A stretch of DNA of 64,000 nt from Gammaproteobacteria bacterium (GCA_965207945.1 OZ242303.1:1280935-1344934), one strand, 5' to 3'; counted from the stretch's first letter, positions 4,822 through 40,255 are shown. A program made the numbers and translations. The notes: generated by a model from the letters alone, not told the origin.

Positions 4822-5925
4822 GTGTTAATCAGCATAATAATCCCCACCTATAAGGAGGCGCCAAACCTAACTCCTCTATGCACCAGCATAGCCGAAGAGT
4901 TCAACTCCATCAAGTATGAAATTCTCATAATGGATGATGACTCACAGGACGGCTCGGATAAGGTGGTTGCCGAATTGCAAAAGCAGGAAATCCCAGTTAG
5001 CATAATCAACCGCAAGGGGCACAAACGCGGACTTTCTGCAGCAGTGATTGACGGCTTGCGCATTGCCAAAGGGGACTATTGCGCTGTTATGGATGCAGAC
5101 CTCTCTCATCCAGTGTCTTCTATCAAACCAATGTTAGACAAATTGCAACAAGGCGAAGTGGATTTTTGCTTGGGCTCGCGCTATGTTGATGGCGCTTCTA
5201 TTGATATCCAATGGACTCTCAAACGGAGAGTTATCTCTATGGTTGCCACTTTGCTGGCTGTCCCGCTGAGTAAAATTAAAGACCCTATGAGTGGCTTCTT
5301 CCTGCTTGCCAGCAAGAATGTGCCGCCAATAAACAAGCTATCGCCATTGGGATATAAGATTGCTTTGGAACTTATAGTCAAGGGCGGCTTTGACAAGATA
5401 TACGAACATCCCATTCATTTTAGCGAGCGCCTGCATGGCAACAGCAAGATGAATGTGCGGCAACAATTCTATTATCTCAGGCATCTGCGGCGTCTGTACC
5501 AATATAAGTATCCAACAATGTCGGAGTTTTTACAATTTGGCATGGTGGGGGGCAGTGGCTTTGTGGTGGATGTGACATTCTATTATATGTTTCAATCATT
5601 GTTTGGCATGAGTCATCTCGCGGCGCGGGCTGCATCCTTTTGGCTGGGGGCATCATGGAACTGGTACTGGAATCGGACGGTTACATTTTCTGAATACTTC
5701 AAAGCCCACCCAGTAAAACAGTGGCTCAGTTTTGTGTTTGTAAGTATCTTTGGCTTTGTTATCAACTGGGGGCTTTATTCATTGCTAACTATCAATGTTG
5801 CTTTCTTTGATGAATATAGAATACTTGCGCTGTTGCTCGGCGTGTTGGGCGGCATGGGTTTTAACTTTATGTTTTCACGCATCTTTATATTCCGCCATAT
5901 TGAAGAGGATGAGGGGGAGAAATAA
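4822..5925 (+). CDS. GT2 glycosyltransferase with C-terminal GtrA-like membrane domain (dolichol-phosphate-mannose-synthase/ArnC-like)
   Basis: GTG start. IIIPTYKEAPN...LIMDDDSQDGS...DADLSH GT2 motifs, then C-terminal hydrophobic GtrA-like segments. The stop overlaps the valS ATG (TAATG). Confidence 0.75.
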   Translation: MLISIIIPTYKEAPNLTPLCTSIAEEFNSIKYEILIMDDDSQDGSDKVVAELQKQEIPVSIINRKGHKRGLSAAVIDGLRIAKGDYCAVMDADLSHPVSSIKPMLDKLQQGEVDFCLGSRYVDGASIDIQWTLKRRVISMVATLLAVPLSKIKDPMSGFFLLASKNVPPINKLSPLGYKIALELIVKGGFDKIYEHPIHFSERLHGNSKMNVRQQFYYLRHLRRLYQYKYPTMSEFLQFGMVGGSGFVVDVTFYYMFQSLFGMSHLAARAASFWLGASWNWYWNRTVTFSEYFKAHPVKQWLSFVFVSIFGFVINWGLYSLLTINVAFFDEYRILALLLGVLGGMGFNFMFSRIFIFRHIEEDEGEK

Positions 5926-8900
5926 TGGATAAAAACTTCAACTCAAAAGAAATAGAAGCGCGCTGGTCTAAATACTGGGAGGATGAGGACTTGTTTGCCC
6001 CCTCTGGAACTGGCGAGCCCTACTCCATAGTCATCCCTCCTCCCAATGTTACTGGCACTCTACACATGGGGCACGCCTTCCTCAACACCATCATTGACAC
6101 CCTCATCCGCTACCAACGGATGAATGGCAAAAACGTGTTGTGGCAGATGGGCACCGACCACGCCGGCATAGCCACTCAGATGGTAGTGGAAAGACGACTC
6201 GCAGCGCAAGGCAAAGACAAACGGGATATGGGAAGGGAAAAATTCTTAGCGGAAGTGTGGAAGTGGAAAGATATGTCATCGGGCACCATAGAAAAACAAC
6301 TACGCCGACTTGGCGCCTCAGTGGATTGGAAAACCAGCAGGTTCACTATGGACGATGCCTACATCAACTCGGTTATTGAAGCATTTGTGCGCCTACACGA
6401 GAAGGGCTTGGTGTATCGCAGCAAACGTCTGGTTAACTGGGACCCAGTCCTACAAACCGCAGTATCCGATTTAGAAGTGCGCGCCGTAGAAGAACCCTCT
6501 ACCCTATATTACATCCGTTATCCGTTCGTAGACGACCCTACTAACAAATCCTGCATGGTCATATCAACCACCCGACCAGAAACAACCCTGGCGGACGGCG
6601 CAGTTGCCGTCCACCCCGATGACGAACGTTATAAATCAGCGGTAGGCAGAATGGTGCGTGTCCCCGGCACCGACAGAATCATCCCCGTAATAGCCGATGA
6701 ATATGTAAAACCCGACTTCGGCTCCGGCTGTGTAAAAATAACTCCAGCACACGACTTCAACGATTACGAAGTGGGTCAAAGGCATACCATGGAAACAATA
6801 AACCTATTCACCAAAGACGCCCACCTCAACGAAAACGCCCCGCCCGCCTACAGAGGCATGGATAGATATGAAGCCCGCACCAAGATTGTGCAGGACTTCA
6901 AACAACAAGGACTCCTCGCAAAAGAAGAAAAGCACAGCTACAGCCCACCACGTGGCGACCGCAGTGGCGTTATATTGGAGCCGTATCTAACCGACCAATG
7001 GTTCATCAAGATGGACACCATGGCACAGCGCGCCATCAAGGCAGTGCAGGACGGCGAAACAAAGTTCGTCTCACCAATGTGGGAAAAAGTATATTACAAC
7101 TGGCTCAACGAAATCCAGGACTGGTGCGTAAGCCGCCAACTATGGTGGGGACACCGCATCCCCGCTTGGTATGATGAGGACGGCAAGCCGTATGTGGGAC
7201 GCAGCCAAGAAGAAGTGCGCGCCAAACACAACCTTGATAGCAGCGTGAAACTGCGCCAGGACGAAGATGTGCTTGATACCTGGTTCTCCTCAGCACTATG
7301 GACTTTTGCCACCATGGGCTGGCCCCATGAAAGTGGCGGGAATGAAAGCGGCGGAAAAGAAAACAACAGACAACAAACCTTCAACCCCACTGATTTATTA
7401 GTAACTGGTTTTGATATTATCTTCTTCTGGGTAGCAAGAATGATTATGGCAACCCTATGCCTAAAAGACGAAGTCCCCTTCCGCAATGTCTACATCCACG
7501 GACTAGTGCGCGACGGCGAAGGACAAAAGATGTCTAAATCCAAAGGGAACATCTTAGACCCTCTGGATATTATTGACGGAGTTGAACTGGAAGAACTACT
7601 GCGCAAACGCACCACAGACATGATGCAGCCAGACAAAGAAAAATCCATAGCCGCCGCCACCAAGAAACACTTCCCCGATGGCATCGCCGAACACGGCACC
7701 GACGCCCTAAGATTTACCTTCTGCGCTATGGCATCAACTGGACGCGACCTCAACTTTGACACATCCCGCTGCATCGGCTACCGCAACTTCTGCAATAAAC
7801 TATGGAATGCAACTCGTTATGTCCTGATGCAGTGCACAGATGCAGACAGAATGGCTGCCACAGACAAACCAACAGGCACCTCCAATATCATTGACCAATA
7901 CATGCAATGGCATTTTGAAATAGTCACCACTGAAATTAGAAATTCACTGGACAACTACCGTATTGACCTAGCAGCCCAAGCCCTCTATGAGTTTGTATGG
8001 CACGAATTCTGCAACTGGTACATCGAATTCACCAAACCAATCTTAGCAGGCGATGACGAACAAGCAAAAGCATCTACCAAGCAAGGACTACTAAGCATGT
8101 TAGACAACATTCTGCACTTAGCCCATCCCTTTATTCCCTTCATCACCGAAGAGACATGGCAACACCTGCATGCAGGGAATAAAAGTAAAAGTGTAAAGAG
8201 CATTATGGTGAGCCAATTCCCACAACATGCTCCCAAAAGTACTGAAGAAATAGATAAAGGAAATAAAAAATTTGCCGCAGTCGCCTGGATGAAAGAGTTC
8301 CTTCAAGGAGTTCGTGTTCTACGCAGTGAATTAAACATCTCCCCCAGCATCTCACTGGAGTTAATATTAGTTAGCGATGATAAAAATGAAGCACGATGGT
8401 TGGAAGAATATGCAGACATAATAAAGCCAATAATCAAATGCAATAAGTTAAGCTCACTAACAACTACTTCTACTAAAAAACCAGCAGCAATAGCCCGCTT
8501 AGCAGGAAAAGGCGAGGTCTTGATGCCAATAACGGCAAACAATCGACCGGGCATCAACAGAGAAGAAGAAGAAAAAAGATTACGGAAAAAGCTTACTATT
8601 GCTGAAGAGAATATCGTCAAACTCAACAACAAACTCAACAACAAAGGATTCACCAATAAAGCTCCTGACAACATAGTTAAAGGAGTTGAAAGAAAACTAG
8701 AAGAACAGGAAGACGCCTGGAATAAAATTAGCACGCAACGTATAGATTTTATAAAAGCTATGAACTCTCTTGATAAAGACAAGGATACTGTCCACGATAA
8801 TGTTGCAGATATGCTCAAGAAAGCTTCACAGATTCCAATAAATTATGCAGATATGCTCAATAATATTTCGCAGACTCAAAAGAATTATGCAGATATGCTC

Positions 8901-11117
8901 AAGAATATTTCGCAACCTCCAATGAATTATGCAGATATGCTCAATAATATTTTGCAGACCCAAAAGAATCATGCAGATATGCTCAAGAATATTTTGCAAC
9001 CTCCAATGAATTATGCAGATATGCTCAATAATATTTTGCAGACCCAAAAGAATCATGCAGATATGCTCAAGAATATTTCACAACCTCCAATGAATTATGC
9101 AAATATATTCAAGAATATTTTGCAGACTCAAAAGAATCATTCAGATATGCTCAAGAATATTTCGCAAACTCCAATGAATTATGCAGATATGCTCGATAAT
9201 ATTTCGCAGACTCGAAAGAATGCAGCAAATATACACAAGAACGTTTTACAGGCTCAAAAGAATGCTGCAGATCATGCCAAGAAAAATACTAAGATTCACA
9301 GCGATGATGCAGAGTTTTATTATAATCAAGGTCTTGCTAAATATACATCAAAAGAGTACAGAGGGGCTATTGACGATTTCACTAAAGCCATTAAAATTAA
9401 ATCTAATCATGTAAACGCTTACTATAATCGAGCCACTACAAAAAGTAAATTAAAAGATTATAAAGGTGCTATCGAGGATTTAACTAAAGCCATTAGGATT
9501 AAACCTAATAATGCACATGCTTACAATAATCGCGGCTACGATAAGTATGAATTAAAAGATTATAAAGGAGCTATTGATGATTTCACTAAAGCCATTAAGA
9601 TTGAACCTAATAATGCTACTGCTTACTATAATCGTGGAAATACTAAAAATCAATTAAAAGATTATCAAGGAGCTATCGATGATTATACTAAAGCTATTAA
9701 GATTGAACCTAATAATGCAAACTATTACTATAATCGTGCTAACACCAAAAGTCAATTTAAAGATTATAAAGGTGCCATTAAAGATTTTACTAAAGCTATT
9801 AAGATTAACCCTAAGAATGCGGATACTTACAATGATCGCGGTGGTGTTAAGAATGAATTAAAGGATTATAAAGGAGCTATAAAAGATTTTACTCAAGCTA
9901 TTAAGATTAACCCTAATTATGCATATCCTTATTATAATCTGGGCATCATTAAAACTAAATTAAAAGATTATAACAGCGCTATTGATTACTTAACTAAAGC
10001 TATAAAGATTAACCCTAAGCATTCACATCCCTATTATAATCTGGGCATCATTAAAACTAAATTAAAAGATTATAAAGGAGCTATTGATTACTTTACTCAA
10101 GCTATTAATTTTGATATCAAAAATGTAAATGCATATTATAATCGTGGTAATGCCAAATTAAAATTAAAAGATTATAAAAGTGCTATTAATGATTATACTG
10201 AAGTCATTAAGATTGATCCCAAAAACGTAAATGCTTACAATAATCTTGGTATGACTAGATATCAATTAAAAGATTACAAAGGTGCTATTAATGATTTAAG
10301 TCAAGCAATTAAGATTAAACCCAAACTTGTAGAATCTTACAATAACCGCGGAAACATTAAAAATCAGTTACACGACTATAAAGGAGCTATTGATGATTTC
10401 ACTAGTATTATTGAGATTGAACCGAATGATGTAGATGCTTACTATAATCGCGGTAATGCCAAATTAAAATTAAAAAATTATAAAAATGCTATCATTGATT
10501 ATAGTAATGCCATTAAGAATAATCCTAACTATGCGTATGCTTATATTAATAGAGGCTCAGCCAAATCTGAATTAGAGGATTATAAGGGCGCAATTAATGA
10601 TTATACTAATGCTATTAAGATCAAACCAAAACTTGCAGCAGGTTATAATAATCGTGGAAATACTAAAGGTAAACTAAAGGATTATAGAGGTGCTATTGAT
10701 GATTTCACTAATGCCATTAATATTGAACCAAATAATGCAGATACTCACAGCAACAGAGGAAAGATTAAAACTCAATTAAAGGATTACAAGGGTGCTATTG
10801 ATGATTATACCAACGCTATTAATTTTAATCCAAATAATGCAGATTTTTATAATAATCGTGGAGCCGCTAAATTTGAACTAAAAGAATATCAAGGGGCACT
10901 TGATGATTATAATAAAGCTATTGAGCTTGCTTCTAACAATGCAGTTGCTTATTATAATCGAGGTGAAGTTAAAGACAAATTAAAAGATTATAAAGGTGCC
11001 ATTAAAGATTGTCAACAAGTGATAGAGCTAACTGAGGGTAGGGATTTAATAGACGAAGAAATTAAAGTCCGCAAGTTAGCCCAAGAACTCCTACAAGAAT
11101 TACAAAGTAAGAAGTAA
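5925..11117 (+). CDS. valS: valyl-tRNA synthetase fused in frame to a 14-aa tandem-repeat array and about 17 TPR repeats (1730-aa ORF)
   Basis: Class I aaRS HMGH (PPPNVTGTLHMGHAF) and KMSKS motifs, and a ValRS C-terminal coiled coil ending about aa 945 (...RIDFIKAM). There is no stop there. The frame continues through about 10 copies of NYADMLNNISQTQK / NYADMLKNISQPPM and then 34-aa TPR units (AYYNRGNAKLKLKDYKGAIDDYT..). GC drops sharply at the junction. Confidence 0.8.
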   Translation: MDKNFNSKEIEARWSKYWEDEDLFAPSGTGEPYSIVIPPPNVTGTLHMGHAFLNTIIDTLIRYQRMNGKNVLWQMGTDHAGIATQMVVERRLAAQGKDKRDMGREKFLAEVWKWKDMSSGTIEKQLRRLGASVDWKTSRFTMDDAYINSVIEAFVRLHEKGLVYRSKRLVNWDPVLQTAVSDLEVRAVEEPSTLYYIRYPFVDDPTNKSCMVISTTRPETTLADGAVAVHPDDERYKSAVGRMVRVPGTDRIIPVIADEYVKPDFGSGCVKITPAHDFNDYEVGQRHTMETINLFTKDAHLNENAPPAYRGMDRYEARTKIVQDFKQQGLLAKEEKHSYSPPRGDRSGVILEPYLTDQWFIKMDTMAQRAIKAVQDGETKFVSPMWEKVYYNWLNEIQDWCVSRQLWWGHRIPAWYDEDGKPYVGRSQEEVRAKHNLDSSVKLRQDEDVLDTWFSSALWTFATMGWPHESGGNESGGKENNRQQTFNPTDLLVTGFDIIFFWVARMIMATLCLKDEVPFRNVYIHGLVRDGEGQKMSKSKGNILDPLDIIDGVELEELLRKRTTDMMQPDKEKSIAAATKKHFPDGIAEHGTDALRFTFCAMASTGRDLNFDTSRCIGYRNFCNKLWNATRYVLMQCTDADRMAATDKPTGTSNIIDQYMQWHFEIVTTEIRNSLDNYRIDLAAQALYEFVWHEFCNWYIEFTKPILAGDDEQAKASTKQGLLSMLDNILHLAHPFIPFITEETWQHLHAGNKSKSVKSIMVSQFPQHAPKSTEEIDKGNKKFAAVAWMKEFLQGVRVLRSELNISPSISLELILVSDDKNEARWLEEYADIIKPIIKCNKLSSLTTTSTKKPAAIARLAGKGEVLMPITANNRPGINREEEEKRLRKKLTIAEENIVKLNNKLNNKGFTNKAPDNIVKGVERKLEEQEDAWNKISTQRIDFIKAMNSLDKDKDTVHDNVADMLKKASQIPINYADMLNNISQTQKNYADMLKNISQPPMNYADMLNNILQTQKNHADMLKNILQPPMNYADMLNNILQTQKNHADMLKNISQPPMNYANIFKNILQTQKNHSDMLKNISQTPMNYADMLDNISQTRKNAANIHKNVLQAQKNAADHAKKNTKIHSDDAEFYYNQGLAKYTSKEYRGAIDDFTKAIKIKSNHVNAYYNRATTKSKLKDYKGAIEDLTKAIRIKPNNAHAYNNRGYDKYELKDYKGAIDDFTKAIKIEPNNATAYYNRGNTKNQLKDYQGAIDDYTKAIKIEPNNANYYYNRANTKSQFKDYKGAIKDFTKAIKINPKNADTYNDRGGVKNELKDYKGAIKDFTQAIKINPNYAYPYYNLGIIKTKLKDYNSAIDYLTKAIKINPKHSHPYYNLGIIKTKLKDYKGAIDYFTQAINFDIKNVNAYYNRGNAKLKLKDYKSAINDYTEVIKIDPKNVNAYNNLGMTRYQLKDYKGAINDLSQAIKIKPKLVESYNNRGNIKNQLHDYKGAIDDFTSIIEIEPNDVDAYYNRGNAKLKLKNYKNAIIDYSNAIKNNPNYAYAYINRGSAKSELEDYKGAINDYTNAIKIKPKLAAGYNNRGNTKGKLKDYRGAIDDFTNAINIEPNNADTHSNRGKIKTQLKDYKGAIDDYTNAINFNPNNADFYNNRGAAKFELKEYQGALDDYNKAIELASNNAVAYYNRGEVKDKLKDYKGAIKDCQQVIELTEGRDLIDEEIKVRKLAQELLQELQSKK
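8841..9290. repeat. 42-bp coding tandem repeat array (about 10.5 units, two alternating variants, 84-bp higher-order period)
   Basis: Repeat unit aattatgcagatatgctcaa(t/g)aatatttcgca(g/a)(a/c)c(t/c)c(a/c)aa(a/t)g seen directly. It lies inside the valS-TPR ORF. Confidence 0.85.
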
Positions 11118-11179
11118 ACAACAATAGTTAAATACAATTCAAATATTTTGTTCGCTTAGTATGAAGGGGCGCAAATAAT

Positions 11180-13990
11180 TCACCTTATCAATCTCAGCAA
11201 TTTCTTTATATCTTTTCTAGCAAAATTTATAAGTTGTAGATTAATCATATCTTTTAACTCTTCATTTTTATATCTTGCTTTCATAAATTTAACTAATTTT
11301 TTATTATCGTTATTCTCTAGAATATAGACAAGAATATCGCGGATTTTATTCGAAATTATAGATATATTTTTCCCTTCATCCAAAAAGAAAAATTCATAGA
11401 TATATAAGAGATTATCTGTGTATTCTGTTTTAGCAAATAAATCACTTTCAAATTTTTTCATAAAATTTATATTTTCTACTACATTCAATCTAAGTAATCC
11501 CTCATAAAACATCTCTCTTATGTCACTATTATTATTAACTAAATCCCTTATTGGTGAATAAATATGTATATGAGAAAATAGGACTCTACAAGTTTCAATA
11601 AAAAAATTAACCATATTCCTTAAATAATTTTTATTATTTTTAATAATATCTGTATATAAAAAATTAGTGGAGACGCCACCATCATCATAAATTTTATGGT
11701 GTTTAAATAAAAATAGAATTAATTCCTGTATTAGAATAGGGCAACCATATATTCCTGATTTTGGTGTTTTTTCAAGTAACTTTGTAATATATAAAATTAA
11801 CTGATCTATAGCCTCGCATAAAGAATCTATATTATCAAAATTATTAAATCTTGGGATATCTAAATTACTTTTATCAAATGAGGGTATAAGTTCTCCTGCT
11901 GATACTAATTCATTATTAAATAAATAATGTAATTCTTTATAAAAGTCATTAAGATATATTATGTTATTTTCATTAATAAACGCAATATCAATACCATCAA
12001 TTATAAAAGTAATAATATTTTCTATTTCTAAAGATTTTAATTTATTCTTTTTAATAGTTTCTTTATTATTCTTACCATATAAATAATTAACAGTCCTATT
12101 ATCACAATGAAATTTATAATATGTTGTATATAAGGTTCCCAATTTATTTCTAATAAAATCATCATTTAAATTATTAATAAACGATTCTAATCCATAAATC
12201 CAAATATAACTATAATTATCAAATTTAGATCTAAAATTTTGAGACAATAAATATTCGACAGACCATAATTGGTAAAATTTATCATAAGATAATTTAAGTA
12301 AATAGTCTAAACCAAACTTATTATTAGAAGCCATAAATTGAAAGAAATAATCTAATTTATCTGGATTAATATTATCGATTACTTCAAATGAATTAAGGTC
12401 AAAAACACTTCTAATCTTAGTTAGTTGACTACTATTTAATTCCCTTATATTATGCACTTCTAAAATAGTTTCAAATATTTTCACAGCGCTAGTGTTAAAA
12501 GTTCCTCTTTGTAATTCTTTATTAAATTCTTCAATTAAATATATAATCATATCATCAAAAAATTCTGGATTATTATTAAGATATATATTTAAATTCACGT
12601 AATCTAAATTATTAATTAAATCAATTAATTCTTGTGATACTAACGAAGCGCTATCAATATTCCTTATTATTTTCTCTACTATAAAAATATCCGATTGCTC
12701 AATAATCCTTCCTACTCTATGAAAAAATATCTGTTGCTCATCTCCGATATAGTATTTTAATTGTTTAATCTTATACGGATAATTACCTATCCTACTATAT
12801 AAATCTAACCACTCCTCTCTAATTATTAACAATATTGTTATTAAACTCTGATTATTCTCTACAAATCGATTACTTGTTTTACTTTCTACAAATTTAAGTT
12901 CCACCATCAAATTATTTAAAATTTTTATAATCCTTCTTGGGTTAGCGGCATATTCTTTTGCAATGATATCTACTGTATGTGGATTTAAACCTAAACTATA
13001 AATCATATTTAATTTATTAATATATGTAAATAAGTCAATATCTTTAAAATACTTAATATTAATAGCTACATTAAAAAACCTATCCAAAAACTCTTTTGAT
13101 TCTTTTATACTAGAATTAATATTCTCTTCATTAATATTATTCCTGATAATTAAGTTCTTCATAAGTAATTCATCATCAATAGGAACTAGAAGTATTACAC
13201 CATTTTGATTAGATAGAAAATTTTTAACGTTAGTTAAAAGTTCATAAGATTTTTCACTATCACATCTATCTATGTTATCAATAACAATAACAATTTTATC
13301 AAACTTACCTGAAATTAACAAATCTGAAGAGTTACCATTTAATAATTTATTCAGTAATTCTTTAATAGAATGTTCAAATTGCTCAGGAGCAAAAAATTTA
13401 TTATGTTTAATAGTTTTTTTATATATATTAGAAGAATTATCTATAACTTTGTATACAATTAAAATAACTATTGGTATTAACGTAAAAATAGTGACGTCTC
13501 CAAGAGTAATATTTAATTCTATACCTATTAGTTTTAGTAAATAATATATGCTTACTAATAACATGACTGGTATCAATGCAAGAGTAACTATATTTTTTAT
13601 AATACTCTTGATGGTGAATTCTTTATCTGTTATTTCTACTGTTTTATCTTGGTACAGATCATAATTTTCATCAAGGTCATCAGGATTTAAAAAATTTTGT
13701 AACTTTAATAAAAATATTTTTTTAAATGAATCTCCGGAATACTTCCAAGCATCATATACAATAAATTTAAATTTTTGATTTCCTTTATCTTTTTTGTGTT
13801 CTAACTCTTCTTTGACAGTTTTTACTATTGAGGACTTTCCTGTACCCCACTTACCAAATAAACCTATTGTGTATCCCTCCCTAGATGATAAAATCATCTC
13901 TTTAATGGTATTGGCATATCTTTTTGTTTCTAATAAATCTTTATCATTTAGATTTATTTCCTCATCAGGAATAAAATTTATCTTTTTCAT
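11180..13990 (-). CDS. KAP-family P-loop NTPase (936 aa)
   Basis: Walker A LFGKWGTGKSS followed by FIVYDAWKYSGD (KAP signature FDAWKYxxD). Two hydrophobic TM helices are inserted in the NTPase domain (IVTLALIPVMLLVSIYYLL...IFTLIPIVILIVY), as is typical for KAP. Very AT-rich. Confidence 0.75.
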   Translation of the reverse strand: MKKINFIPDEEINLNDKDLLETKRYANTIKEMILSSREGYTIGLFGKWGTGKSSIVKTVKEELEHKKDKGNQKFKFIVYDAWKYSGDSFKKIFLLKLQNFLNPDDLDENYDLYQDKTVEITDKEFTIKSIIKNIVTLALIPVMLLVSIYYLLKLIGIELNITLGDVTIFTLIPIVILIVYKVIDNSSNIYKKTIKHNKFFAPEQFEHSIKELLNKLLNGNSSDLLISGKFDKIVIVIDNIDRCDSEKSYELLTNVKNFLSNQNGVILLVPIDDELLMKNLIIRNNINEENINSSIKESKEFLDRFFNVAINIKYFKDIDLFTYINKLNMIYSLGLNPHTVDIIAKEYAANPRRIIKILNNLMVELKFVESKTSNRFVENNQSLITILLIIREEWLDLYSRIGNYPYKIKQLKYYIGDEQQIFFHRVGRIIEQSDIFIVEKIIRNIDSASLVSQELIDLINNLDYVNLNIYLNNNPEFFDDMIIYLIEEFNKELQRGTFNTSAVKIFETILEVHNIRELNSSQLTKIRSVFDLNSFEVIDNINPDKLDYFFQFMASNNKFGLDYLLKLSYDKFYQLWSVEYLLSQNFRSKFDNYSYIWIYGLESFINNLNDDFIRNKLGTLYTTYYKFHCDNRTVNYLYGKNNKETIKKNKLKSLEIENIITFIIDGIDIAFINENNIIYLNDFYKELHYLFNNELVSAGELIPSFDKSNLDIPRFNNFDNIDSLCEAIDQLILYITKLLEKTPKSGIYGCPILIQELILFLFKHHKIYDDGGVSTNFLYTDIIKNNKNYLRNMVNFFIETCRVLFSHIHIYSPIRDLVNNNSDIREMFYEGLLRLNVVENINFMKKFESDLFAKTEYTDNLLYIYEFFFLDEGKNISIISNKIRDILVYILENNDNKKLVKFMKARYKNEELKDMINLQLINFARKDIKKLLRLIR

Positions 13991-30601: not shown

Positions 30602-31240
30602 ATGCCAAATGATTGTAAAAAAACTATTGATGATCTTAATCAAATTATTAAGACTGATCCAAATAATGCATATGCTTACGATGATCGCGGCCATACTAAA
30701 TTTAAATTACAAGATTATCAAGGAGCCATTGATGATCTTAATCAAGCCATTAATATTGAACCAAATAATGCAAAATTTTACAGTAATCGTGGCGTCATTA
30801 AACTTACAATTAAAGATTATAAAGGAGCTATCAATGATTTTACTGAATCTATTAAAATTGATCCAAATGAAACCCGTTATTACAATAATCGTGGCAACGC
30901 TAAACTTGAAATTAAAGATTACAAAGGGGCTATCAAAGATTATCAAATAGCACTTAAAATTAACCCAAATAATGCAAATGCTTACAATGATCGCGGTATC
31001 GCCAAACGTGAATTAAAAGACTATAACGGGGCTATCAATGATTTTACTCAGGCTATTGAAATTGAACCGAATGATGCGAATGCTTACAATAATCGTGGTA
31101 ATATTAAATATAAATTAAAAGACTATAACGGGGCTATCAATGATTATCAAATAGCATTAAATTTAAGTGATAATAAATATTTAACTGGAAGAATAACTAA
31201 ATCCCTTAAGCAAGTTCAGAAAACATTAAAAGATTCGTAG
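30602..31240 (+). CDS. orphan TPR-repeat protein (6 TPRs; same subfamily as the FRG-TPR genes; possibly an N-terminally truncated remnant)
   Basis: Starts inside a TPR helix (MPNDCKKTIDDLNQIIKTDPNNAYAYDDRG). The repeats (AYNNRGNIKYKLKDYNGAINDY) match those at 35.6-36.3 kb, 37.4-37.9 kb and 9.3-11.0 kb. Confidence 0.55.
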   Translation: MPNDCKKTIDDLNQIIKTDPNNAYAYDDRGHTKFKLQDYQGAIDDLNQAINIEPNNAKFYSNRGVIKLTIKDYKGAINDFTESIKIDPNETRYYNNRGNAKLEIKDYKGAIKDYQIALKINPNNANAYNDRGIAKRELKDYNGAINDFTQAIEIEPNDANAYNNRGNIKYKLKDYNGAINDYQIALNLSDNKYLTGRITKSLKQVQKTLKDS

Positions 31241-34706: not shown

Positions 34707-34766
34707 ATGAATTATTCTACCAAAATATATAAAAAGGTTCTGCCAGCAACCACCCTACTTCCTTGA
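34707..34766 (+). CDS. 19-codon upstream leader ORF (MNYSTKIYKKVLPATTLLP) whose TGA overlaps the TTG start of FRG-TPR 1
   Basis: ATG 34707, stop TGA 34764-34766, main ORF TTG at 34763 (TTGA overlap). The paralogous copy is at 36458-36517. Confidence 0.35.
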   Translation: MNYSTKIYKKVLPATTLLP

Positions 34767-36418
34767 GTTATATTCAAGATACTGGAAGTAATGCACCAGT
34801 AGTTAATTCCGTTTCAGAGTTTCTTGCATGCATTAATGATATTATAAAATATAACAATGACCAGGGAAGTAAATTTTTGTTTAGAGGTCAAGAGAACGAA
34901 GAGTGGGAGATGGAAACATCTGCTTATAGGCGTCTAAAAAGAGAATCCAACGATAATCAAGTATCAGAAGGAGAGGAATTGTATTACAATCTTGGATTAA
35001 TACAACAATTTAGACATGCAGATTTCCATAGCAAGTACTCATCAGAAATAATGCAGCAGGACTTAGGTATTTTAGCTCAACTACAACATATGGGAGCTGC
35101 AACCTCATTAATTGATTTCACTGATAACGCAACAACTGCTTTATGGTTTGCTTGTAAAAAAAGTATAAACTCAGATAGTAATCATAATAATGGCAAGGTA
35201 TTTATTTTATTTGCAGGTGGCGAACATAATTTTGAAGAGATTGATAGTTTAGAACAAATAAAAAATTCTAGAGTAAGATTTCCTAAACAATTAGAATTTG
35301 CTAAAGAAAATAATATATTAAACAATGAAAAGTTAAACTATTGGAAACCAGCGCATCTTAATAATCGCATTACTGCTCAGCAATCTTATTTTTTAATAGG
35401 CAAAAGAGAACCACCAAAAATGCAAGAAATAGTTATAGCAGGAGCTTCAAAAATTGATATGTTAGAAGAGCTATCATTAGTACATGGAATTGAGCGAACG
35501 ACATTATTTCCAGATTTAGTTGGTTTTGCGCAGGCAAATTCTGTAGATTCAGCTTACGGCAAAGAAGAAAAACTGTTAAGAAAGAGAAATATTATTCGCC
35601 ATCACGATGAAATTATTGAACAAAGCCCTGAAGATCTCGGAGCTTATAGTAATCGAAGCATTGCTAAGTACAATTTGGGGGATTACGAAGGGGCTATTGA
35701 TGATTTTACCCAAGCTATTAATATTGACCCAAAGAATGCAAATGCTTACAATAATCGTGGTTACATTAAATATCAAATAGAACGTTACAAAGATGCTACT
35801 GATGATTTCAATGAAGCTATTAAGATTGACCCAAGCACTGCATTATTTTATAATAATCGCGGTAATCTTAAATGCACGTTAAAAAAATATCAACTTGCTG
35901 TTAATGATTACAATGAAGCTATTAAAATTGAATCAAATAATGCATTATTTTATAACGGTCGCGGACATGCTAAGCGTGGATTAAAAGATTATAAAGAAGC
36001 TATTAATGATTTTACTAAAGCTATTAATATTGACCCGAATGATGTAAATTCTTACAACGAACTCGGAAACACTAAACTTAAATTAAAAGATTATAAAGAA
36101 GCTATTAATGATTTTACTAAAGCTATTGAAATTGATCCAAAGAATGCAAATCTTTACTATAATCGTGGTATGACTGAATATGAATCCAAAGATTATAAAG
36201 AAGCTATTAATGATTTTACTAAAGCTATTGAAATTGATCCAAAGAATGCAAATGCTTACCATAGCTCTGGTAAAGCTAAACTTGAGTTAAATGATTATAA
36301 AGAAGCTATTAATGATTATGAAACAGCACTGAAGCATAGTATAGACAAAGATTTAACTGAGGATATAACTCTAGACCTTGAGGATGCCCAGGACACTTTT
36401 AGAGAACGTACAAGGTAA
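34763..36418 (+). CDS. FRG-domain protein fused to C-terminal TPR repeats (paralog 1)
   Basis: KFLFRGQENEEW and LGILAQLQHMGAATSLIDFTDNATTALWFA match FRG-domain (PF08867) consensus motifs (FRGQ; QHyGlPTrLLDWT). The C-terminus has about 8 TPRs. There is no in-frame ATG before the FRG motif, so it starts at TTG 34763. Confidence 0.7.
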   Translation: MSYIQDTGSNAPVVNSVSEFLACINDIIKYNNDQGSKFLFRGQENEEWEMETSAYRRLKRESNDNQVSEGEELYYNLGLIQQFRHADFHSKYSSEIMQQDLGILAQLQHMGAATSLIDFTDNATTALWFACKKSINSDSNHNNGKVFILFAGGEHNFEEIDSLEQIKNSRVRFPKQLEFAKENNILNNEKLNYWKPAHLNNRITAQQSYFLIGKREPPKMQEIVIAGASKIDMLEELSLVHGIERTTLFPDLVGFAQANSVDSAYGKEEKLLRKRNIIRHHDEIIEQSPEDLGAYSNRSIAKYNLGDYEGAIDDFTQAINIDPKNANAYNNRGYIKYQIERYKDATDDFNEAIKIDPSTALFYNNRGNLKCTLKKYQLAVNDYNEAIKIESNNALFYNGRGHAKRGLKDYKEAINDFTKAINIDPNDVNSYNELGNTKLKLKDYKEAINDFTKAIEIDPKNANLYYNRGMTEYESKDYKEAINDFTKAIEIDPKNANAYHSSGKAKLELNDYKEAINDYETALKHSIDKDLTEDITLDLEDAQDTFRERTR

Positions 36419-36457: not shown

Positions 36458-36517
36458 ATGAATTCTTCTACTAAAACATATAAAAAGGTTCTTCCTCCAA
36501 CCACTCTACTTCTTTGA
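36458..36517 (+). CDS. 19-codon upstream leader ORF (MNSSTKTYKKVLPPTTLLL) whose TGA overlaps the TTG start of FRG-TPR 2
   Basis: ATG 36458, TGA 36515-36517, main TTG 36514. It is 15/19 aa identical to copy 1. Confidence 0.35.
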   Translation: MNSSTKTYKKVLPPTTLLL

Positions 36518-37986
36518 GTAATAATAAGAACAATGGGTCCGTTGAGAATGTTAAAGATTTTCTTGAACACATCAACAAAATTGTAAAGCCAGAAACTCAA
36601 AAGGCAAGCAAAGTTTTATTTAGAGGGCAAGAGAGTGCAGAGTGGCCAATAGAAACATCTGCTCATAGACGTTTAAGAGGAAAATCAAATGAAAAAATAA
36701 TATCAGAAGAACAAGAACTATATTACAATATTAGATTAATAGAACAGTTTAAACATGGGGATTTCCATAGTCCTAATTCATCAGAAATGATGAAAAATGA
36801 CTTAGGTATTCTAGCCCAATTACAACATCAGGGAGCTGCTACTTCATTAATTGATTTCTCGGATAATCCTTTAGTCGCTTTATGGTTTGCTTGCCAAGAA
36901 AGCCCAAAATCGGTTAGTGATCATAATGGACAGGTATTCATTCTATCTACAAGTAGTAATAAATATAATTTTGAAGAGATAGATAGTATTGAACAAATAG
37001 AGTATTATAAAGTAAGTATTCCTGATCAATTACACAATCCTAAGATAGATGGTATATTGAACGACCCTACGTTCTTCTATTGGAAACCAGCACATCTTAA
37101 TAACCGTATTACTGCCCAGCAATCATATTTTTTGATAGGCAAAAGAAAACTCCCAGAAATGGAAAAAATATCTATAGAAGAAAATTCAAAATTTAATATC
37201 CTAAAAGAGTTATTATCAGTATATGGGATTAATGAAGTAACGCTATACCCCGATTTAGTCGGTTTTGCGCAAGCAAATTCTTCACGTTCATCTTATGACC
37301 AAGAGACACAAAATGAAACACAAAAATTTATATATAAAAAAAGTATTTTTCGCCTAAATAAAAAGATCAAAGAAAACTCTGAAGATTATGATTCTTATAG
37401 CAAACGAGGGGTTGCCAAATATAAATTGGATGATTATAAAGGTGCTATTGATGATTGGAGTGAAGTTATCAAGGTTAATCCAAATAATGCAACTATTTAC
37501 TATAATTGTGGGGTCGCTAAGGGTAAATTAAAAGATTATAAAAGAGCTATTGATAATTATGATAAAGCCATTAAGTATAATCCAGATTATGCAGACGCTT
37601 ACAATAATCGTGGTGATGCAAAAGATCAATTAAAAGATAATAAAGGCGCTATGGATGATTACAATAAAGCTATTAAGATTGATCCAAACCATGCAGATGC
37701 TTACAATAATCGTGGGGCAGCTAAATATGAATTAAAAGATAATAAAGGTGCTATGGATGATTACAATAAAGCTATTGAGATTAATCCAAATTATGCAACT
37801 GCTTACAATAATCGTGGCGATGCTAAAATTAAATTAGAAGATTATAAAGGCGCTATTGATGATTATCAAACAGTTTTAAAACATAGTAAGGATACAAACT
37901 TAACTGAGATTGCAAATAAAAATATTAAGCTAGGCAAGGCAAAATTAAAGGAAGTACAGAATAAATTTTCTAAAGATAAGAAGTAG
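36514..37986 (+). CDS. FRG-domain protein fused to C-terminal TPR repeats (paralog 2)
   Basis: KVLFRGQESAEWPIETSAHRR and LGILAQLQHQGAATSLIDFSDNPLVALWFA, then about 6 TPRs. Starts at TTG. Confidence 0.7.
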   Translation: MSNNKNNGSVENVKDFLEHINKIVKPETQKASKVLFRGQESAEWPIETSAHRRLRGKSNEKIISEEQELYYNIRLIEQFKHGDFHSPNSSEMMKNDLGILAQLQHQGAATSLIDFSDNPLVALWFACQESPKSVSDHNGQVFILSTSSNKYNFEEIDSIEQIEYYKVSIPDQLHNPKIDGILNDPTFFYWKPAHLNNRITAQQSYFLIGKRKLPEMEKISIEENSKFNILKELLSVYGINEVTLYPDLVGFAQANSSRSSYDQETQNETQKFIYKKSIFRLNKKIKENSEDYDSYSKRGVAKYKLDDYKGAIDDWSEVIKVNPNNATIYYNCGVAKGKLKDYKRAIDNYDKAIKYNPDYADAYNNRGDAKDQLKDNKGAMDDYNKAIKIDPNHADAYNNRGAAKYELKDNKGAMDDYNKAIEINPNYATAYNNRGDAKIKLEDYKGAIDDYQTVLKHSKDTNLTEIANKNIKLGKAKLKEVQNKFSKDKK

Positions 37987-39022: not shown

Positions 39023-40255
39023 TTATTCAGCGGTGTGGTGTTCGTCGCAGGCGGCTTGGATGGCGGTGAGGCGGGCTTCGCGGACGGCGGCAGGTATGTC
39101 TATATCTGGTGTATTCTGGATGGCAGCTCGGATGTCTACTGCTGTGGCTGCTTTGGCTATTTGGGCGAATAGGTCGCCGCGGGTGTAAGCTGCGGTTTCA
39201 AATCCTAATCTGCCGCGGGAGTCGGCTTTGCACAGGAGGAGGAAGTCGGCAAAGCGGTGGGGGCGTCGCCATAAGTCAAAGGCGTCAAATACTTTTAGCA
39301 TTGTGTCGGGGTTCATTTCTTTGCAGCGGTGGGTGTGGGTGTGGTAGCGGCAGCACAGGACTGAGAAGTCCGTAATCTCGCGGGGGGCGGTTATGCGCTC
39401 ACATAACTTCTGCACTAATGGCACTCCTCTTTCTTCGTGTCCTCTATGTGAAGGTAAGATGTCTTTGGGGGTGGTGCCTTTGCCGAGGTCGTGGGTTAAG
39501 GCGGCAAATCTGATGGAGACCTTGTTGGATAATAAAGCTGCTTGTTTGAGGACTGCCAGAGTGTGAATGCCGCAATCTATCTCTGGATGATACTTAGGTG
39601 GTTGGGGGATGCCGAATAGTTTTTCCACTTCGGGGTACCAGTAGTTCAGCCCTCCTACTTCGTGCAGCACTTCAAAGAATATATGCGGTGCGGTGCTTTC
39701 TAATGCTTTGCTGCTTTCAACCCAGATTCTTTCGGCGCTCATGGTGTCCAGTTCGCCCACCATTTGTTTGAGCATCTCAGTGGTTTCATCGGCTATGGTG
39801 AAGCCCATTGTATGGAACTTGGCGGCAAATCTTGCCACGCGTAGGACGCGCAGTGGGTCTTCTACAAATGCCTCTGATGTGTGGCGGATAATCTTATTTT
39901 CTAAATCTTGCTGACCTTTATAAAAGTCAATGATATCTCCGTTGGCATCTTGCGCCATGGCGTTGATGGTGATGTCGCGTCTTTTGAGGTCGTCTTCCAG
40001 GGTGACGTCTGCGGCGCTATAGAAGGTGAAGCCGTGGTATCCCCTGCCCTTTTTGCGTTCGGTGCGGGCTAAGGCGTATTCTTCTTTGGTGGTGGGATGG
40101 AGGAATACGGGGAAGTCCTTGCCTACTGGTTTGAAGCCGGCGGCGAGCATTTGTTCGGGGGTGGCGCCAACGGTTACCCAGTCCCTGTCATGGGTTGGGA
40201 TGTTGAGGAGTTTGTCGCGCACGGCGCCGCCAACAATGTAGTGTTTAATTGCCAT
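39023..40255 (-). CDS. cca: CCA-adding tRNA nucleotidyltransferase with HD domain
   Basis: N-terminal IVGGAVRDKLL.. pol-beta NTase motif and C-terminal HD (HTLAV...THDLGK). Hairpin ccgcacataagtgcggtg is downstream (38987-39004). Confidence 0.9.
   Translation of the reverse strand: MAIKHYIVGGAVRDKLLNIPTHDRDWVTVGATPEQMLAAGFKPVGKDFPVFLHPTTKEEYALARTERKKGRGYHGFTFYSAADVTLEDDLKRRDITINAMAQDANGDIIDFYKGQQDLENKIIRHTSEAFVEDPLRVLRVARFAAKFHTMGFTIADETTEMLKQMVGELDTMSAERIWVESSKALESTAPHIFFEVLHEVGGLNYWYPEVEKLFGIPQPPKYHPEIDCGIHTLAVLKQAALLSNKVSIRFAALTHDLGKGTTPKDILPSHRGHEERGVPLVQKLCERITAPREITDFSVLCCRYHTHTHRCKEMNPDTMLKVFDAFDLWRRPHRFADFLLLCKADSRGRLGFETAAYTRGDLFAQIAKAATAVDIRAAIQNTPDIDIPAAVREARLTAIQAACDEHHTAE

What the first reader, a model, noticed from the sequence alone, without database searches (positions are those of the whole stretch)
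5925..11117. valS reading frame does not terminate: ValRS fused in frame to a novel 14-aa repeat array and about 17 TPRs
A complete ValRS (HMGH, KMSKS, anticodon-binding, terminal coiled coil ending ...RIDFIKAM at about aa 945) is recognisable. Where bacterial ValRS normally stops, the frame instead continues for another about 780 codons. It first passes through about 10 alternating 14-aa units (NYADMLNNISQTQK / NYADMLKNISQPPM, a repeat I do not recognise) and then through TPR units. These TPRs belong to the same subfamily as the FRG-TPR genes 24 kb away. GC content collapses exactly at this junction, so the fusion point is also the left edge of the AT-rich island. This looks like an island/recombination junction that destroyed the valS stop. 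Alternatively it is a genuine chimeric synthetase.
Basis: seen in the sequence. Interest (0 to 1): 0.6.

Follow-up and report, generated by a model that had tools for sequence, protein, structure and literature searches.

The report
Valyl-tRNA synthetase fused to TPR array
The essential enzyme that loads valine onto tRNA really is made here as one giant protein with a 17-repeat protein-binding (TPR) tail borrowed from the neighbouring anti-phage gene island. The fusion is inherited and kept by selection in several related bacteria, and similar tails sit on lysyl- and glutaminyl-tRNA synthetases elsewhere, with no description found in the literature.

Summary
Window 5925-11117 (+) is one 1730-codon ORF: a complete ValRS (aa 1-943), a 184-aa spacer with 12 units of a 14-aa repeat, exactly 17 TPRs of 34 aa, and a capping helix.

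It is not an assembly error or a fresh accident:
- Five further fused alleles (1581-1873 aa) sit in the same synteny on other contigs, including a circular 2.06-Mb long-read contig at 128x.
- They have three junction designs: long repeat spacer, 45-aa spacer, and no spacer.
- The TPR part evolves with dN/dS of about 0.3.
- Chance predicts 66 stops in the extension; 5% neutral divergence would already introduce one.
- Three alleles have no usable internal start codon.

Sister strains carry unfused valS next to the same neighbour gene, so the fusion is an accessory polymorphism.

The compositional and divergence break lies inside valS, at about codon 640-700, not at the fusion point.

The tail belongs to the same TPR subfamily as the FRG(ART)-TPR candidate defence genes of the adjacent 30-kb defence island.

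LysRS-TPR (31 sequence clusters) and GlnRS-TPR fusions exist in unrelated bacteria.

Function is unknown. My best guess is a tethered peptide-binding or sensor scaffold on an active synthetase.

The parts
5925..11117 (+). Whole chimeric ORF, 1730 aa (about 195 kDa estimated from length): ValRS, spacer, 17 TPRs, capping helix. The start codon overlaps the stop of the upstream GtrA-type glycosyltransferase gene (4822-5925).
5925..8753 (+). Complete class-Ia valyl-tRNA synthetase (aa 1-943). It has HMGH at aa 47, the editing-domain motif TTRPET at aa 215, KMSKS at aa 535, the anticodon-binding domain and the C-terminal coiled-coil arm. Unfused orthologues stop at the position aligned to aa 943.
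7845..8753 (+). Island-proximal third of valS (aa 641-943). GC3 falls from about 0.55 to 0.35-0.39 here. Identity between strains falls from 95-99% to 65-89%, and dS rises from 0.13-0.22 to as much as 0.93. Three haplogroups exist: A, B1 and B2. This is the real compositional and recombinational edge of the variable region.
8754..9305 (+). Spacer, aa 944-1127. It contains 12 units of a 14-aa repeat (8799-9302; NYADMLNNI(S/L)QTQK alternating with N(Y/H)ADMLKNI(S/L)QPPM), organised as an 84-nt double unit. It evolves without detectable constraint (omega about 1.2). Its length varies from 0 to about 185 aa between alleles. No Pfam or PADLOC family matches it.
9306..11039 (+). TPR solenoid of exactly 17 x 34 aa (aa 1128-1705). 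Consensus: NANAYYNRGNAKYKLKDYKGAIDDFTKAIKINPN. The most variable positions are canonical positions 2, 3, 9, 10, 12, 13, 18 and 31. omega is 0.32 against the L083 orthologue.
11040..11117 (+). C-terminal amphipathic capping helix of the TPR domain (aa 1706-1730) plus the stop codon (11115-11117).
11180..13990 (-). KAP-family P-loop NTPase (QatA-like), convergent with the ORF. The homologous gene directly follows the unfused valS in L082. Relative to that strain, the 8754-11117 extension is therefore a clean indel between the same two neighbours.
30602..31240 (+). TPR-only ORF (212 aa) of the same TPR subfamily.
34763..36418 (+). FRG(ART-superfamily)-TPR protein. It matches the PADLOC candidate defence family PDC-S15. 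Its TPR array is of the same subfamily as the ValRS tail.
36514..37986 (+). Second FRG-TPR protein (PDC-S15-like), same TPR subfamily.
39023..40255 (-). cca (tRNA nucleotidyltransferase with HD domain), GC 0.53. It is the first core gene on the right side of the AT-rich defence island.

Best explanation
**What it is.** This is a genuine, heritable chimeric gene. The organism's housekeeping valyl-tRNA synthetase is translated as one polypeptide of about 195 kDa. Its C-terminal tRNA-binding coiled coil continues through an unconstrained spacer of variable length into a complete, capped 17-repeat TPR solenoid.

**How it arose (inferred).** valS is the left flanking gene of a hypervariable defence-island hotspot (valS ... 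DLH ... cca). Recombination breakpoints fall inside the last third of valS, so that third travels with the island as deeply diverged haplotypes. In some haplotypes an island-type TPR array was joined in frame at the natural C-terminus. That array belongs to the same subfamily as the sensor arrays of the FRG/ART-TPR candidate defence proteins. The spacer then expanded by slippage of a 42/84-nt unit.

**How it works.**
- Shown: the ValRS part is intact and orthologous. The TPR part is kept open and under purifying selection. In three of the five alleles examined for start codons it can only be made as part of ValRS.
- Inferred: the enzyme still charges tRNA-Val. The tail acts as a tethered peptide-binding scaffold. 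Its variable residues lie on the concave helix-A face. It would dock a partner protein onto ValRS, or sense one at ValRS, at ValRS expression level.
- Unknown: whether the partner is an island-encoded protein, an invader protein or a host protein.

**Accessory, not essential.** Sister strains do without the fusion.
For: **The fusion is real and inherited.**
- An identical protein is on record from a 1.86-Mb contig.
- Fused relatives are P0002 (1838 aa), P0003 (1827 aa), P0121 (1873 aa), P0004 (1581 aa) and P0005 (1588 aa).
- The four whose contigs could be retrieved (P0002, P0003, P0004, P0005) all sit in the same synteny. One of them is on a circular 2.06-Mb contig at 128x.

**Three junction designs** are seen.

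**The open frame is kept by selection.**
- 66 stops are expected and none is seen.
- P(no stop) is 0.0005 after only 5% neutral divergence, while the alleles differ by 10-30%.

**Selection on each part.**
- TPR part: omega 0.32 (dS 0.2) against L083, and 0.43-0.44 against L084 and L081.
- Spacer: omega about 1.2.

**A folded TPR domain.** 17 perfect 34-aa units plus a capping helix. Variability is concentrated at canonical positions 2, 3, 9, 10, 12 and 13.

**No separate start for the tail.** There is no in-frame ATG, GTG or TTG between the ValRS end and the second or third TPR in L084 and L085. L081 has only one, a non-ATG codon without a Shine-Dalgarno motif. No Shine-Dalgarno-linked start exists in any allele.

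**The ValRS core is intact.** It is 95-99% identical to unfused orthologues over aa 1-640, with omega 0.05-0.11.

**Accessory status.** The unfused L082 has valS followed by the same KAP NTPase neighbour.

**Mosaic 3' third of valS.** Supported by GC3 and dS profiles and by the haplogroups.

**Defence-island context and TPR kinship** with the FRG-TPR genes. [quoted passage not shown]

**Precedent that such chimeras persist.**
- LysRS-TPR occurs in 31 clusters whose LysRS cores are 91-98% identical, with 5-17 TPRs. Within the best 120 hits, no unfused LysRS is closer than 63% identity.
- GlnRS-TPR occurs in two clusters.
Against: - There are no expression, proteomic or biochemical data. Everything rests on metagenome-derived assemblies, and the retrieved relatives come from only two ENA samples.
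- Unfused alleles show that ValRS does not need the tail. Selection may therefore act on the TPR protein alone, with the fusion serving only as a way to get it expressed.
- No effector or partner has been identified.
- The TPR part matches no PADLOC defence model.
- The structure prediction of the junction was uninformative, with pLDDT 38.
- A second, ordinary valS elsewhere in the genome could not be excluded, because only the window was available.
- dN/dS in repeat arrays can be distorted by unit shuffling. Only the comparison between the window and L083 is cleanly colinear.
Confidence: 0.6

Rival explanations
1. **Guard or integrated-bait model.** The fusion is itself part of the defence island. 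ValRS is a known phage target, so it would serve as bait. Binding of a phage protein to ValRS or to the TPR sensor would trigger translation arrest by sequestering the only ValRS. Alternatively it would signal to the neighbouring FRG(ART)-TPR effectors.
For: - The tail is the same TPR subfamily as the FRG-TPR (PDC-S15) candidate defence proteins. An FRG-TPR gene accompanies every fused locus examined.
- The gene borders a defence hotspot carrying a GmrSD-type restriction gene, an OLD/Gabija-like gene, type III restriction-modification genes, McrBC and a KAP NTPase.
- The fusion is polymorphic among strains, as defence genes are.
- Variable residues lie on the presumed binding face.
- T4-like phages carry an annotated 'valyl-tRNA synthetase modifier' gene (PMC12895675). 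That this protein binds host ValRS is my own knowledge.
Against: - The fusion contains no effector or NTPase domain.
- It has no PADLOC hit.
- The LysRS-TPR and GlnRS-TPR loci are followed by plain TPR-gene clusters rather than recognisable defence genes.
- There is no experimental link between FRG-TPR and ValRS.
- Arresting the sole ValRS is a speculative mechanism.
Confidence: 0.2
2. **Expression piggy-backing.** Selection acts only on having the TPR protein made. Losing the stop lets a promoterless island TPR gene use valS transcription and translation. The physical link to ValRS has no function, and the tail may be cleaved off.
For: - Unfused alleles are viable.
- The spacer is unconstrained and varies from 0 to about 185 aa.
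- TPR-only genes of the same subfamily exist as free-standing ORFs.
Against: - Three different junction designs all preserve the fusion, although a single stop plus a start codon would separate the two parts.
- The same architecture is present in every sampled member of a LysRS clade, across 31 clusters.
- No cleavage site or internal start is evident.
Confidence: 0.13
3. **Recent accidental junction.** An island insertion or deletion removed the valS stop. The tail is a neutral read-through into a decaying TPR gene.
For: - The fusion point lies next to an AT-rich island.
- Relative to L082 the extension is a clean indel between the same neighbours.
Against: - The fusion is conserved in at least six genomes or contigs that differ by 10-30% in the tail.
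- omega is 0.32-0.44.
- Neutral drift would introduce stops almost at once.
- The 17 repeats are perfectly phased and carry an intact capping helix.
Confidence: 0.04
4. **Assembly or sequencing error** hides a stop or frameshift near 8750-8800.
For: None found. The reads of this particular genome could not be inspected.
Against: - Independent assemblies, by naming style metaMDBG (one contig at 128x and circular) and Flye, give fused genes with the same join position.
- 785 codons stay open downstream in one frame only.
Confidence: 0.02

Closest known systems
Canonical bacterial valyl-tRNA synthetase (ValS, class Ia, with a C-terminal coiled-coil tRNA-binding arm)
   Same: All defining domains and motifs are present. 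It is orthologous and syntenic with unfused valS of sister strains, 95-99% identical over aa 1-640.
   Different: It carries 787 extra C-terminal residues: a repeat spacer plus 17 TPRs. The last third of the gene is a compositionally shifted, deeply diverged haplotype linked to the island.
Appended domains of aminoacyl-tRNA synthetases. Examples: the eukaryotic GST-like, WHEP and EMAPII domains that build the multi-synthetase complex, and the Mycoplasma penetrans MetRS-aminotransferase fusion (PMC7694997).
   Same: A non-catalytic or extra domain is added to an intact housekeeping synthetase. The likely role is protein-protein interaction.
   Different: The appended module is a long consensus-type TPR solenoid. 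It is C-terminal, island-derived and polymorphic within a species complex. I found no paper describing synthetase-TPR fusions. Complex formation is untested.
FRG(ART-superfamily)-TPR proteins (PADLOC candidate PDC-S15), and more generally 'effector + TPR sensor' conflict-system proteins
   Same: Same TPR subfamily (72-76% DNA identity, near-identical consensus) and the same island.
   Different: The N-terminal partner is an essential translation enzyme, not an ART, protease, TIR or NTPase effector. The fusion has no FRG domain and no PADLOC hit.
LysRS-TPR and GlnRS-TPR fusions found here (P0180 and P0249-P0278; P0129 and P0130)
   Same: - A housekeeping synthetase is joined at its natural C-terminus to 5-17 or more consensus-type TPRs. 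The LysRS example lies in the canonical prfB-lysS operon.
- GC drops at the junction.
- More TPR genes follow downstream.
   Different: - The synthetases and the host lineages are different (GC 0.55-0.66).
- There is no spacer.
- The downstream genes are plain TPR clusters, not recognisable defence genes.
- The LysRS fusion appears fixed in its clade, whereas the ValRS fusion is polymorphic.
Core genes flanking hypervariable loci that hitch-hike as divergent haplotypes (for example gnd next to the O-antigen cluster in E. coli; my own knowledge)
   Same: There is a sharp rise in divergence and a change of composition in the part of the core gene nearest the variable locus, with breakpoints inside the gene.
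   Different: Here the hitch-hiking segment also gained an in-frame domain from the variable locus.

Membership tests
Valyl-tRNA synthetase (class Ia) | HIGH and KMSKS signature motifs in a Rossmann-fold catalytic domain | tested here: met
   HMGH at aa 47 and KMSKS at aa 535. Pfam tRNA-synt_1 scores 465 bits against a cutoff of 22.7.
Valyl-tRNA synthetase (class Ia) | Anticodon-binding domain and ValRS-specific C-terminal coiled-coil arm | tested here: met
   Anticodon_1 scores 117.6 bits (aa 657-814). Val_tRNA-synt_C scores 40.9 bits (aa 880-937, model positions 3-60 of 66).
Valyl-tRNA synthetase (class Ia) | Orthology with the housekeeping valS of relatives (synteny and sequence) | tested here: met
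   The same upstream genes (MFS, GT2, AFG1, aconitase-family, GtrA-GT) occur in L081-L085. Identity over aa 1-640 is 95-99%.
Valyl-tRNA synthetase (class Ia) | Valylation of tRNA-Val and editing of Thr-tRNA-Val by the full-length protein | not testable with these tools
   Needs biochemistry or complementation of a valS(ts) strain.
Tetratricopeptide repeat (TPR) domain | Tandem 34-residue helix-turn-helix units with the consensus small and large residues (canonical positions 8, 20, 27 and 4, 7, 11, 24, 32) | tested here: met
   17 in-phase 34-aa units. TPR_1 scores 428.7 bits over 17 stretches. The consensus is xAxAYYNRGxAKxxLKDYxGAIxDFTKAIxIxPN.
Tetratricopeptide repeat (TPR) domain | Terminal capping (solvating) helix and a folded superhelix | tested here: inconclusive
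   A 25-aa amphipathic C-terminal helix-like segment is present. The only structure model covers aa 861-1297 (the junction and the first TPRs), was run on a single sequence and is unreliable, with pLDDT 38.
FRG-TPR / PADLOC PDC-S15 candidate defence proteins | N-terminal FRG (ART-superfamily) domain | tested here: not met
   Pfam finds no FRG hit in the 1730-aa protein. PADLOC finds nothing for the spacer or the TPR part, aa 946-1730. The neighbours 34763-36418 and 36514-37986 do have the FRG domain.
FRG-TPR / PADLOC PDC-S15 candidate defence proteins | C-terminal TPR array of this subfamily | tested here: met
   72-76% DNA identity and a near-identical unit consensus.
STAND/Avs-type immune sensors with TPR arrays | STAND NTPase module N-terminal to the repeats | tested here: not met
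   No NTPase domain is present in the ORF.
Synthetase appended domains that build multi-synthetase complexes | Non-catalytic interaction domain fused to an intact synthetase | tested here: met
   This is the domain architecture found here.
Synthetase appended domains that build multi-synthetase complexes | Assembly with other synthetases or translation factors through the appended domain | not testable with these tools
   Needs pull-down or co-fractionation experiments. Only the window of this genome was available, so other synthetase-TPR fusions in the same genome could not be looked for.

The most novel reading that the evidence does not exclude
Housekeeping aminoacyl-tRNA synthetases with C-terminal consensus-type TPR solenoids form a recurrent, convergently evolved and so far undescribed class. 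It is seen here for ValRS, LysRS and GlnRS in three unrelated lineages. In each case the synthetase gene sits at the edge of a lower-GC cluster of TPR or defence genes.

The tail would physically couple the translation apparatus to another system in one of two ways. It could act as a guard or sensor that watches a synthetase targeted by invaders. It could instead be a bacterial counterpart of the eukaryotic synthetase scaffolding domains.

The contig naming and the neighbouring sample accessions hint at one large long-read metagenome project. These may be host-associated bacteria, but that is an unverified inference.
Probability: 0.3. Interest if true: 0.8.

Novelty: new variant of a known kind. 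Interest (0 to 1): 0.6.

Why it matters
Bacterial synthetases are usually thought of as compact enzymes with few add-ons. Long interaction domains on synthetases are a eukaryotic hallmark, tied to complexes and to non-translational signalling.

This locus offers several new things:
- An essential bacterial synthetase carries a protein-binding solenoid of about 600 aa taken from a defence island.
- Fused and unfused alleles occur naturally in near-identical backgrounds, which makes a ready-made comparison.
- Parallel LysRS and GlnRS cases exist in other lineages.

If the tail recruits or senses a partner, it would link translation directly to immunity or to host interaction.

The locus is also a clear example of an island boundary that lies inside a core gene. 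There the flanking gene's 3' end evolves as part of the variable locus and can capture island domains.

Tried and rejected
- **Exact look-ups.** Look-ups of the window protein, P0001, P0121 and P0123 found no record. The window's own contig and two further genomes could therefore not be inspected.
- **Organism identity.** It remains unknown. The closest named ValRS sequences are about 51% identical (Cellvibrio, Alcanivorax, Methylocaldum). The window has no rRNA gene.
- **Structure prediction.** AlphaFold on aa 861-1297 with a single sequence gave pLDDT 38. I discarded it and did not use its helices as evidence.
- **Spacer homologues.** An exhaustive search of 1.84 billion representatives found only weak matches (87 bits or less, 10-30% identity). 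Two proteins have a similar 14-residue period. I did not treat this as a family.
- **PADLOC.** It found nothing for the spacer or the TPR part.
- **Promoter and terminator scans.** Promoter-like sites number 25 against 16 +/- 4 expected in this AT-rich DNA, which is not informative. No terminator lies inside the ORF.
- **Literature.** Searches for synthetase-TPR fusions found nothing relevant. A search for the sample label PANK22 was irrelevant.
- **Alternative genetic code.** Rejected as an explanation, because the frame is open under the strictest reading, with all three stop codons counted.
- **Recent gene conversion from the FRG-TPR arrays.** Rejected. The window's array is 86% identical in protein to its L083 orthologue but only 72-76% identical in DNA to the paralogous arrays in the same genome.

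Full report
**1. Observation**

The window has a single ORF at 5925..11117 (+) of 1730 codons.

Pfam places the ValRS domains as follows:
- the class-I catalytic and editing body at aa 14-612 (465 bits);
- the anticodon-binding domain at aa 657-814;
- the ValRS-specific coiled-coil arm at aa 880-937;
- 17 TPR_1 stretches after that.

HMGH (aa 47), TTRPET (aa 215) and KMSKS (aa 535) are present. Unfused orthologues end at the residue aligned with window aa 943, nt 8753. The gene therefore runs on for 787 codons.

The extension has three parts:
- **Spacer, aa 944-1127.** It contains 12 units of 14 aa. Tandem Repeats Finder reports 11.4 copies of 42 nt, or 5.2 copies of an 84-nt double unit at 90% match, over 8804-9283.
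- **TPR array, aa 1128-1705.** It has exactly 17 units of 34 aa with no indel.
- **Capping helix.** A 25-aa amphipathic helix-like segment ends the protein.

At 30% GC, 66 stops are expected in these 785 codons, so P(none) is about 1e-30. The other five frames carry 32-150 stops.

**2. Not an artefact and not a one-off**

A search of 5.8 billion protein clusters found the identical protein on a 1.86-Mb contig. It also found four further ValRS-TPR clusters:
- P0002, 1838 aa;
- P0003, 1827 aa;
- P0004, 1581 aa;
- P0005, 1588 aa.

A cluster member, P0121 (1873 aa), lies on a 2.09-Mb contig. The contigs carrying P0002-P0005 could be retrieved. All four show the same upstream synteny: MFS, GT2, AFG1-like ATPase, an aconitase-family gene, GtrA-type glycosyltransferase, then valS. 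One is a circular 2.06-Mb contig at 128x coverage.

Close relatives with an ordinary valS also exist: P0006, P0123 and P0128 (1014-1044 aa) and P0007 (970 aa, on a 1.79-Mb contig). In the unfused strain L082, valS is followed directly by a homologue of the window's KAP NTPase gene (11180-13990). Homology with the window stops at 8717 and resumes at 11172. The extension is therefore a clean presence/absence polymorphism between the same two neighbours.

**3. Three junction designs**

- **Haplogroup A1** (window, P0002) has the long 14-aa-repeat spacer, about 180-185 aa.
- **Haplogroup A2** (P0004, P0005) has a 45-aa spacer. It shares both ends with A1 and carries only about two proto-units, so the repeat grew by expansion of a pre-existing linker.
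- **Haplogroup B1** (P0003) runs from the coiled coil straight into a degenerate first TPR.

All designs join at the natural C-terminus of ValRS. TPR number differs between alleles in whole-unit steps. The register search found 17, 16, 17, 13 and 14 full in-register units in the window, P0002, P0003, P0004 and P0005. Unit-by-unit matching shows that P0002 carries about three more units than the window.

**4. Selection**

| Region | Comparison | Result |
|---|---|---|
| ValRS codons 1-640 | all fused and unfused loci | omega 0.05-0.11, dS 0.13-0.22 |
| TPR part | window vs colinear L083 | dN 0.065, dS 0.205, omega 0.32 |
| TPR part | window vs L084 and L081 | omega 0.43-0.44 |
| Spacer | window vs L083 and L084 | omega about 1.2 |

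A simulation of neutral substitutions shows that 5% divergence leaves the 785-codon frame open only 0.05% of the time. The alleles differ by 10-30% in this region. Unfused alleles are viable, so a stop would cost ValRS nothing. Its absence therefore means the tail is selected as protein.

In L084 and L085 there is no in-frame ATG, GTG or TTG between the end of ValRS and the second or third TPR. L081 has only one, a non-ATG codon without a Shine-Dalgarno motif. No allele has a Shine-Dalgarno-linked start. At least in those three alleles the tail can only be made as a fusion.

Within the repeat, the most variable positions are canonical 2, 3, 9, 10, 12, 13, 18 and 31. Most of these lie on helix A, on the face that binds ligands in characterised TPR proteins; that last point is my own knowledge. 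Amino-acid differences between orthologous units are modestly enriched at these positions, 28 observed against 18 expected.

**5. Where the island really begins**

In fact GC3 changes in steps:

| Codons | GC3 |
|---|---|
| up to about 700 | 0.53-0.65 |
| 701-1100 | 0.35-0.39 |
| TPRs | 0.16-0.25 |

The unfused allele keeps GC3 at about 0.5 to its end.

Divergence between strains jumps at the same place. Over aa 1-640 all strains are 95-99% identical. Over aa 641-945 they fall into three haplogroups that are only 65-79% identical to each other:
- A, fused;
- B1, fused;
- B2, unfused.

dS rises to 0.77-0.93 there. The outgroup P0008 is closer to B (60-61%) than to A (52-54%), so the A-type 3' end is the more derived one.

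The last third of valS thus behaves as part of the variable locus, with recombination breakpoints inside the gene. This resembles core genes that hitch-hike next to hypervariable loci (my own knowledge).

**6. Context**

The AT-rich stretch from about 8.8 to 38.9 kb is a defence island. It carries:
- a KAP/QatA-like NTPase;
- a GmrSD-type restriction gene;
- a STAND-like ATPase;
- an OLD/AriA/GajA-like ATPase-TOPRIM gene;
- a type III restriction enzyme with two modification methylases;
- McrBC;
- a TPR-only ORF;
- two FRG-TPR genes that match the PADLOC candidate PDC-S15.

FRG is a member of the ADP-ribosyltransferase superfamily and has been proposed as an antiviral effector, possibly an NADase (PMC9503650). 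The right border is cca.

The same hotspot in related genomes holds different defence genes. An FRG-TPR gene is present in every fused locus examined.

The ValRS tail and the three other TPR arrays of the island share 72-76% DNA identity and an almost identical unit consensus. The tail is closer still to its orthologue in L083, at 86% protein identity. It is therefore an independent orthologous lineage and not a product of ongoing gene conversion.

**7. The same theme elsewhere**

I searched with the tail alone. The two best hits among billions of proteins were GlnRS-TPR fusions, P0129 (1188 aa) and P0130 (1136 aa). A LysRS-TPR fusion, P0180 (1051 aa), was also in the list. No other housekeeping partner appeared among the 120 best hits. 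Those were otherwise fused to proteases, kinases, caspase or CHAT domains, TIR domains or AAA modules.

The LysRS fusion has these properties:
- It lies in the canonical prfB-lysS operon.
- It occurs in 31 distinct 90%-identity clusters.
- The LysRS cores are 91-98% identical, and the tails have 5-17 TPRs.
- Within the 120 best hits, no unfused LysRS is closer than 63% identity.

In both the LysRS and GlnRS loci GC drops at the synthetase-TPR boundary (0.66 to 0.55, and 0.57 to 0.51). The downstream genes are runs of pure TPR proteins. I found no paper describing synthetase-TPR fusions.

**8. Mechanism**

*Shown:*
- The ValRS part is intact and orthologous.
- The TPR domain is complete and selected.
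- The spacer is unconstrained.
- Translation as a fusion is obligatory in three of the five alleles examined.
- The fusion is accessory and polymorphic.
- The tail is of island origin.

*Inferred:*
- The protein still charges tRNA-Val.
- The tail is a tethered peptide-binding scaffold that brings a partner to ValRS, or senses a protein at ValRS, at the expression level of the synthetase.

I rate the reading 'genuine, selected chimeric synthetase with a tethered binding module' at about 0.6 overall. The 'genuine fused gene' part alone is about 0.9.

A more specific guard or bait model fits the defence context. It also fits the existence of a phage-encoded 'valyl-tRNA synthetase modifier' in T4-like phages (annotation seen in PMC12895675; the biochemistry is my own knowledge). 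No effector, partner or experiment supports it, so I rate it 0.2.

The remaining rivals are listed in the rival explanations with their probabilities: mere expression piggy-backing (0.13), a recent accident (0.04) and an assembly error (0.02).

**9. Limits**

It is a gammaproteobacterium-like lineage with a genome of 1.8-2.2 Mb, and its closest named ValRS is about 51% identical.
- The retrieved relatives come from two ENA samples.
- A second valS in the genome cannot be excluded.
- The one structure model was useless.
- The apparent enrichment of synthetases among TPR fusion partners rests on one ranked list of 120 hits and needs a proper census.

Noticed in passing
L087:10001-13156 (also L088, L089); proteins P0180 and P0249-P0278: LysRS-TPR fusions occur in an unrelated high-GC lineage, in the canonical prfB-lysS operon. 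There are 31 sequence clusters. The LysRS cores are 91-98% identical and the tails have 5-17 TPRs. Runs of pure TPR genes follow downstream. Within the 120 best hits, no unfused LysRS is closer than 63% identity.
   Followed up: partly
L086:10001-13411; proteins P0129 and P0130: GlnRS-TPR fusions (about 17 TPRs, no spacer) occur in a third lineage. A metallophosphatase gene follows, then four pure TPR genes, one of which has 38 TPRs.
   Followed up: partly
window 19425-20624 (-): A dienelactone-hydrolase-family gene with core-like GC (0.42) sits inside the AT-rich island. It is 98% identical to its counterpart in L081 and is present in L083. The 'island' is therefore two variable segments, valS-to-DLH and DLH-to-cca, around a conserved anchor. 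FRG-TPR genes lie on the valS side of DLH in the relatives but on the cca side here.
   Followed up: partly
window about 6530-6560 (ValRS aa about 203-212) and about 7840-7900 (aa about 640-660): There are strain-specific low-complexity insertions inside ValRS. Near aa 205 an Asn/Ser/Ala-rich insert of 20-40 aa is present in P0004-P0007 and absent here. After aa 640 haplogroup B has a longer Ala/Ser/Asp-rich insert. The window also has a small tandem ESGGNESGGKEN motif at about aa 480.
   Followed up: no
window 25620-28010 (-) and 28123-30411 (-): Two tandem N6/N4 DNA methylase genes of similar size and domain layout (796 and 762 aa) lie next to one type III restriction subunit (22613-25618). 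They look like duplicated or alternative modification genes.
   Followed up: no
window 10987-11015 (-): A perfect sigma-70 consensus (TTGACA, 17 nt, TATAAT; 12 of 12 matches) lies on the minus strand inside the last TPR and capping-helix region. It points antisense into the TPR array. It may be chance in AT-rich DNA.
   Followed up: no
proteins P0368 (aa about 1240-1390) and P0370 (aa about 430-530): The only noticeable matches to the 14-aa spacer repeat are other 14-residue repeats, SIHKY(D/N)(I/L)LxN(I/V)xQ(T/S). They occur in large proteins of unknown function, one of which has a Spherulin4 domain. The shared core is Y-D-(I/M)-L-x-N-I-x-Q-T. Whether this reflects homology or convergent composition is undecided.
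   Followed up: partly
L085:2050-3246 (+): An IS605-family TnpB (OrfB / Cas12f-like) gene is inserted between the AFG1-like ATPase and the aconitase-family gene in one fused strain only.
   Followed up: no
sample and contig names of L081-L089: The ValRS-TPR, LysRS-TPR and GlnRS-TPR contigs mostly carry the same long-read assembler naming style (ctgN_coverage_l or _c). Their ENA analysis accessions are close to each other (ERZ25069762, ERZ25069764, ERZ25070167). This hints at one large metagenome project and perhaps a shared type of habitat. No habitat metadata could be retrieved.
   Followed up: no
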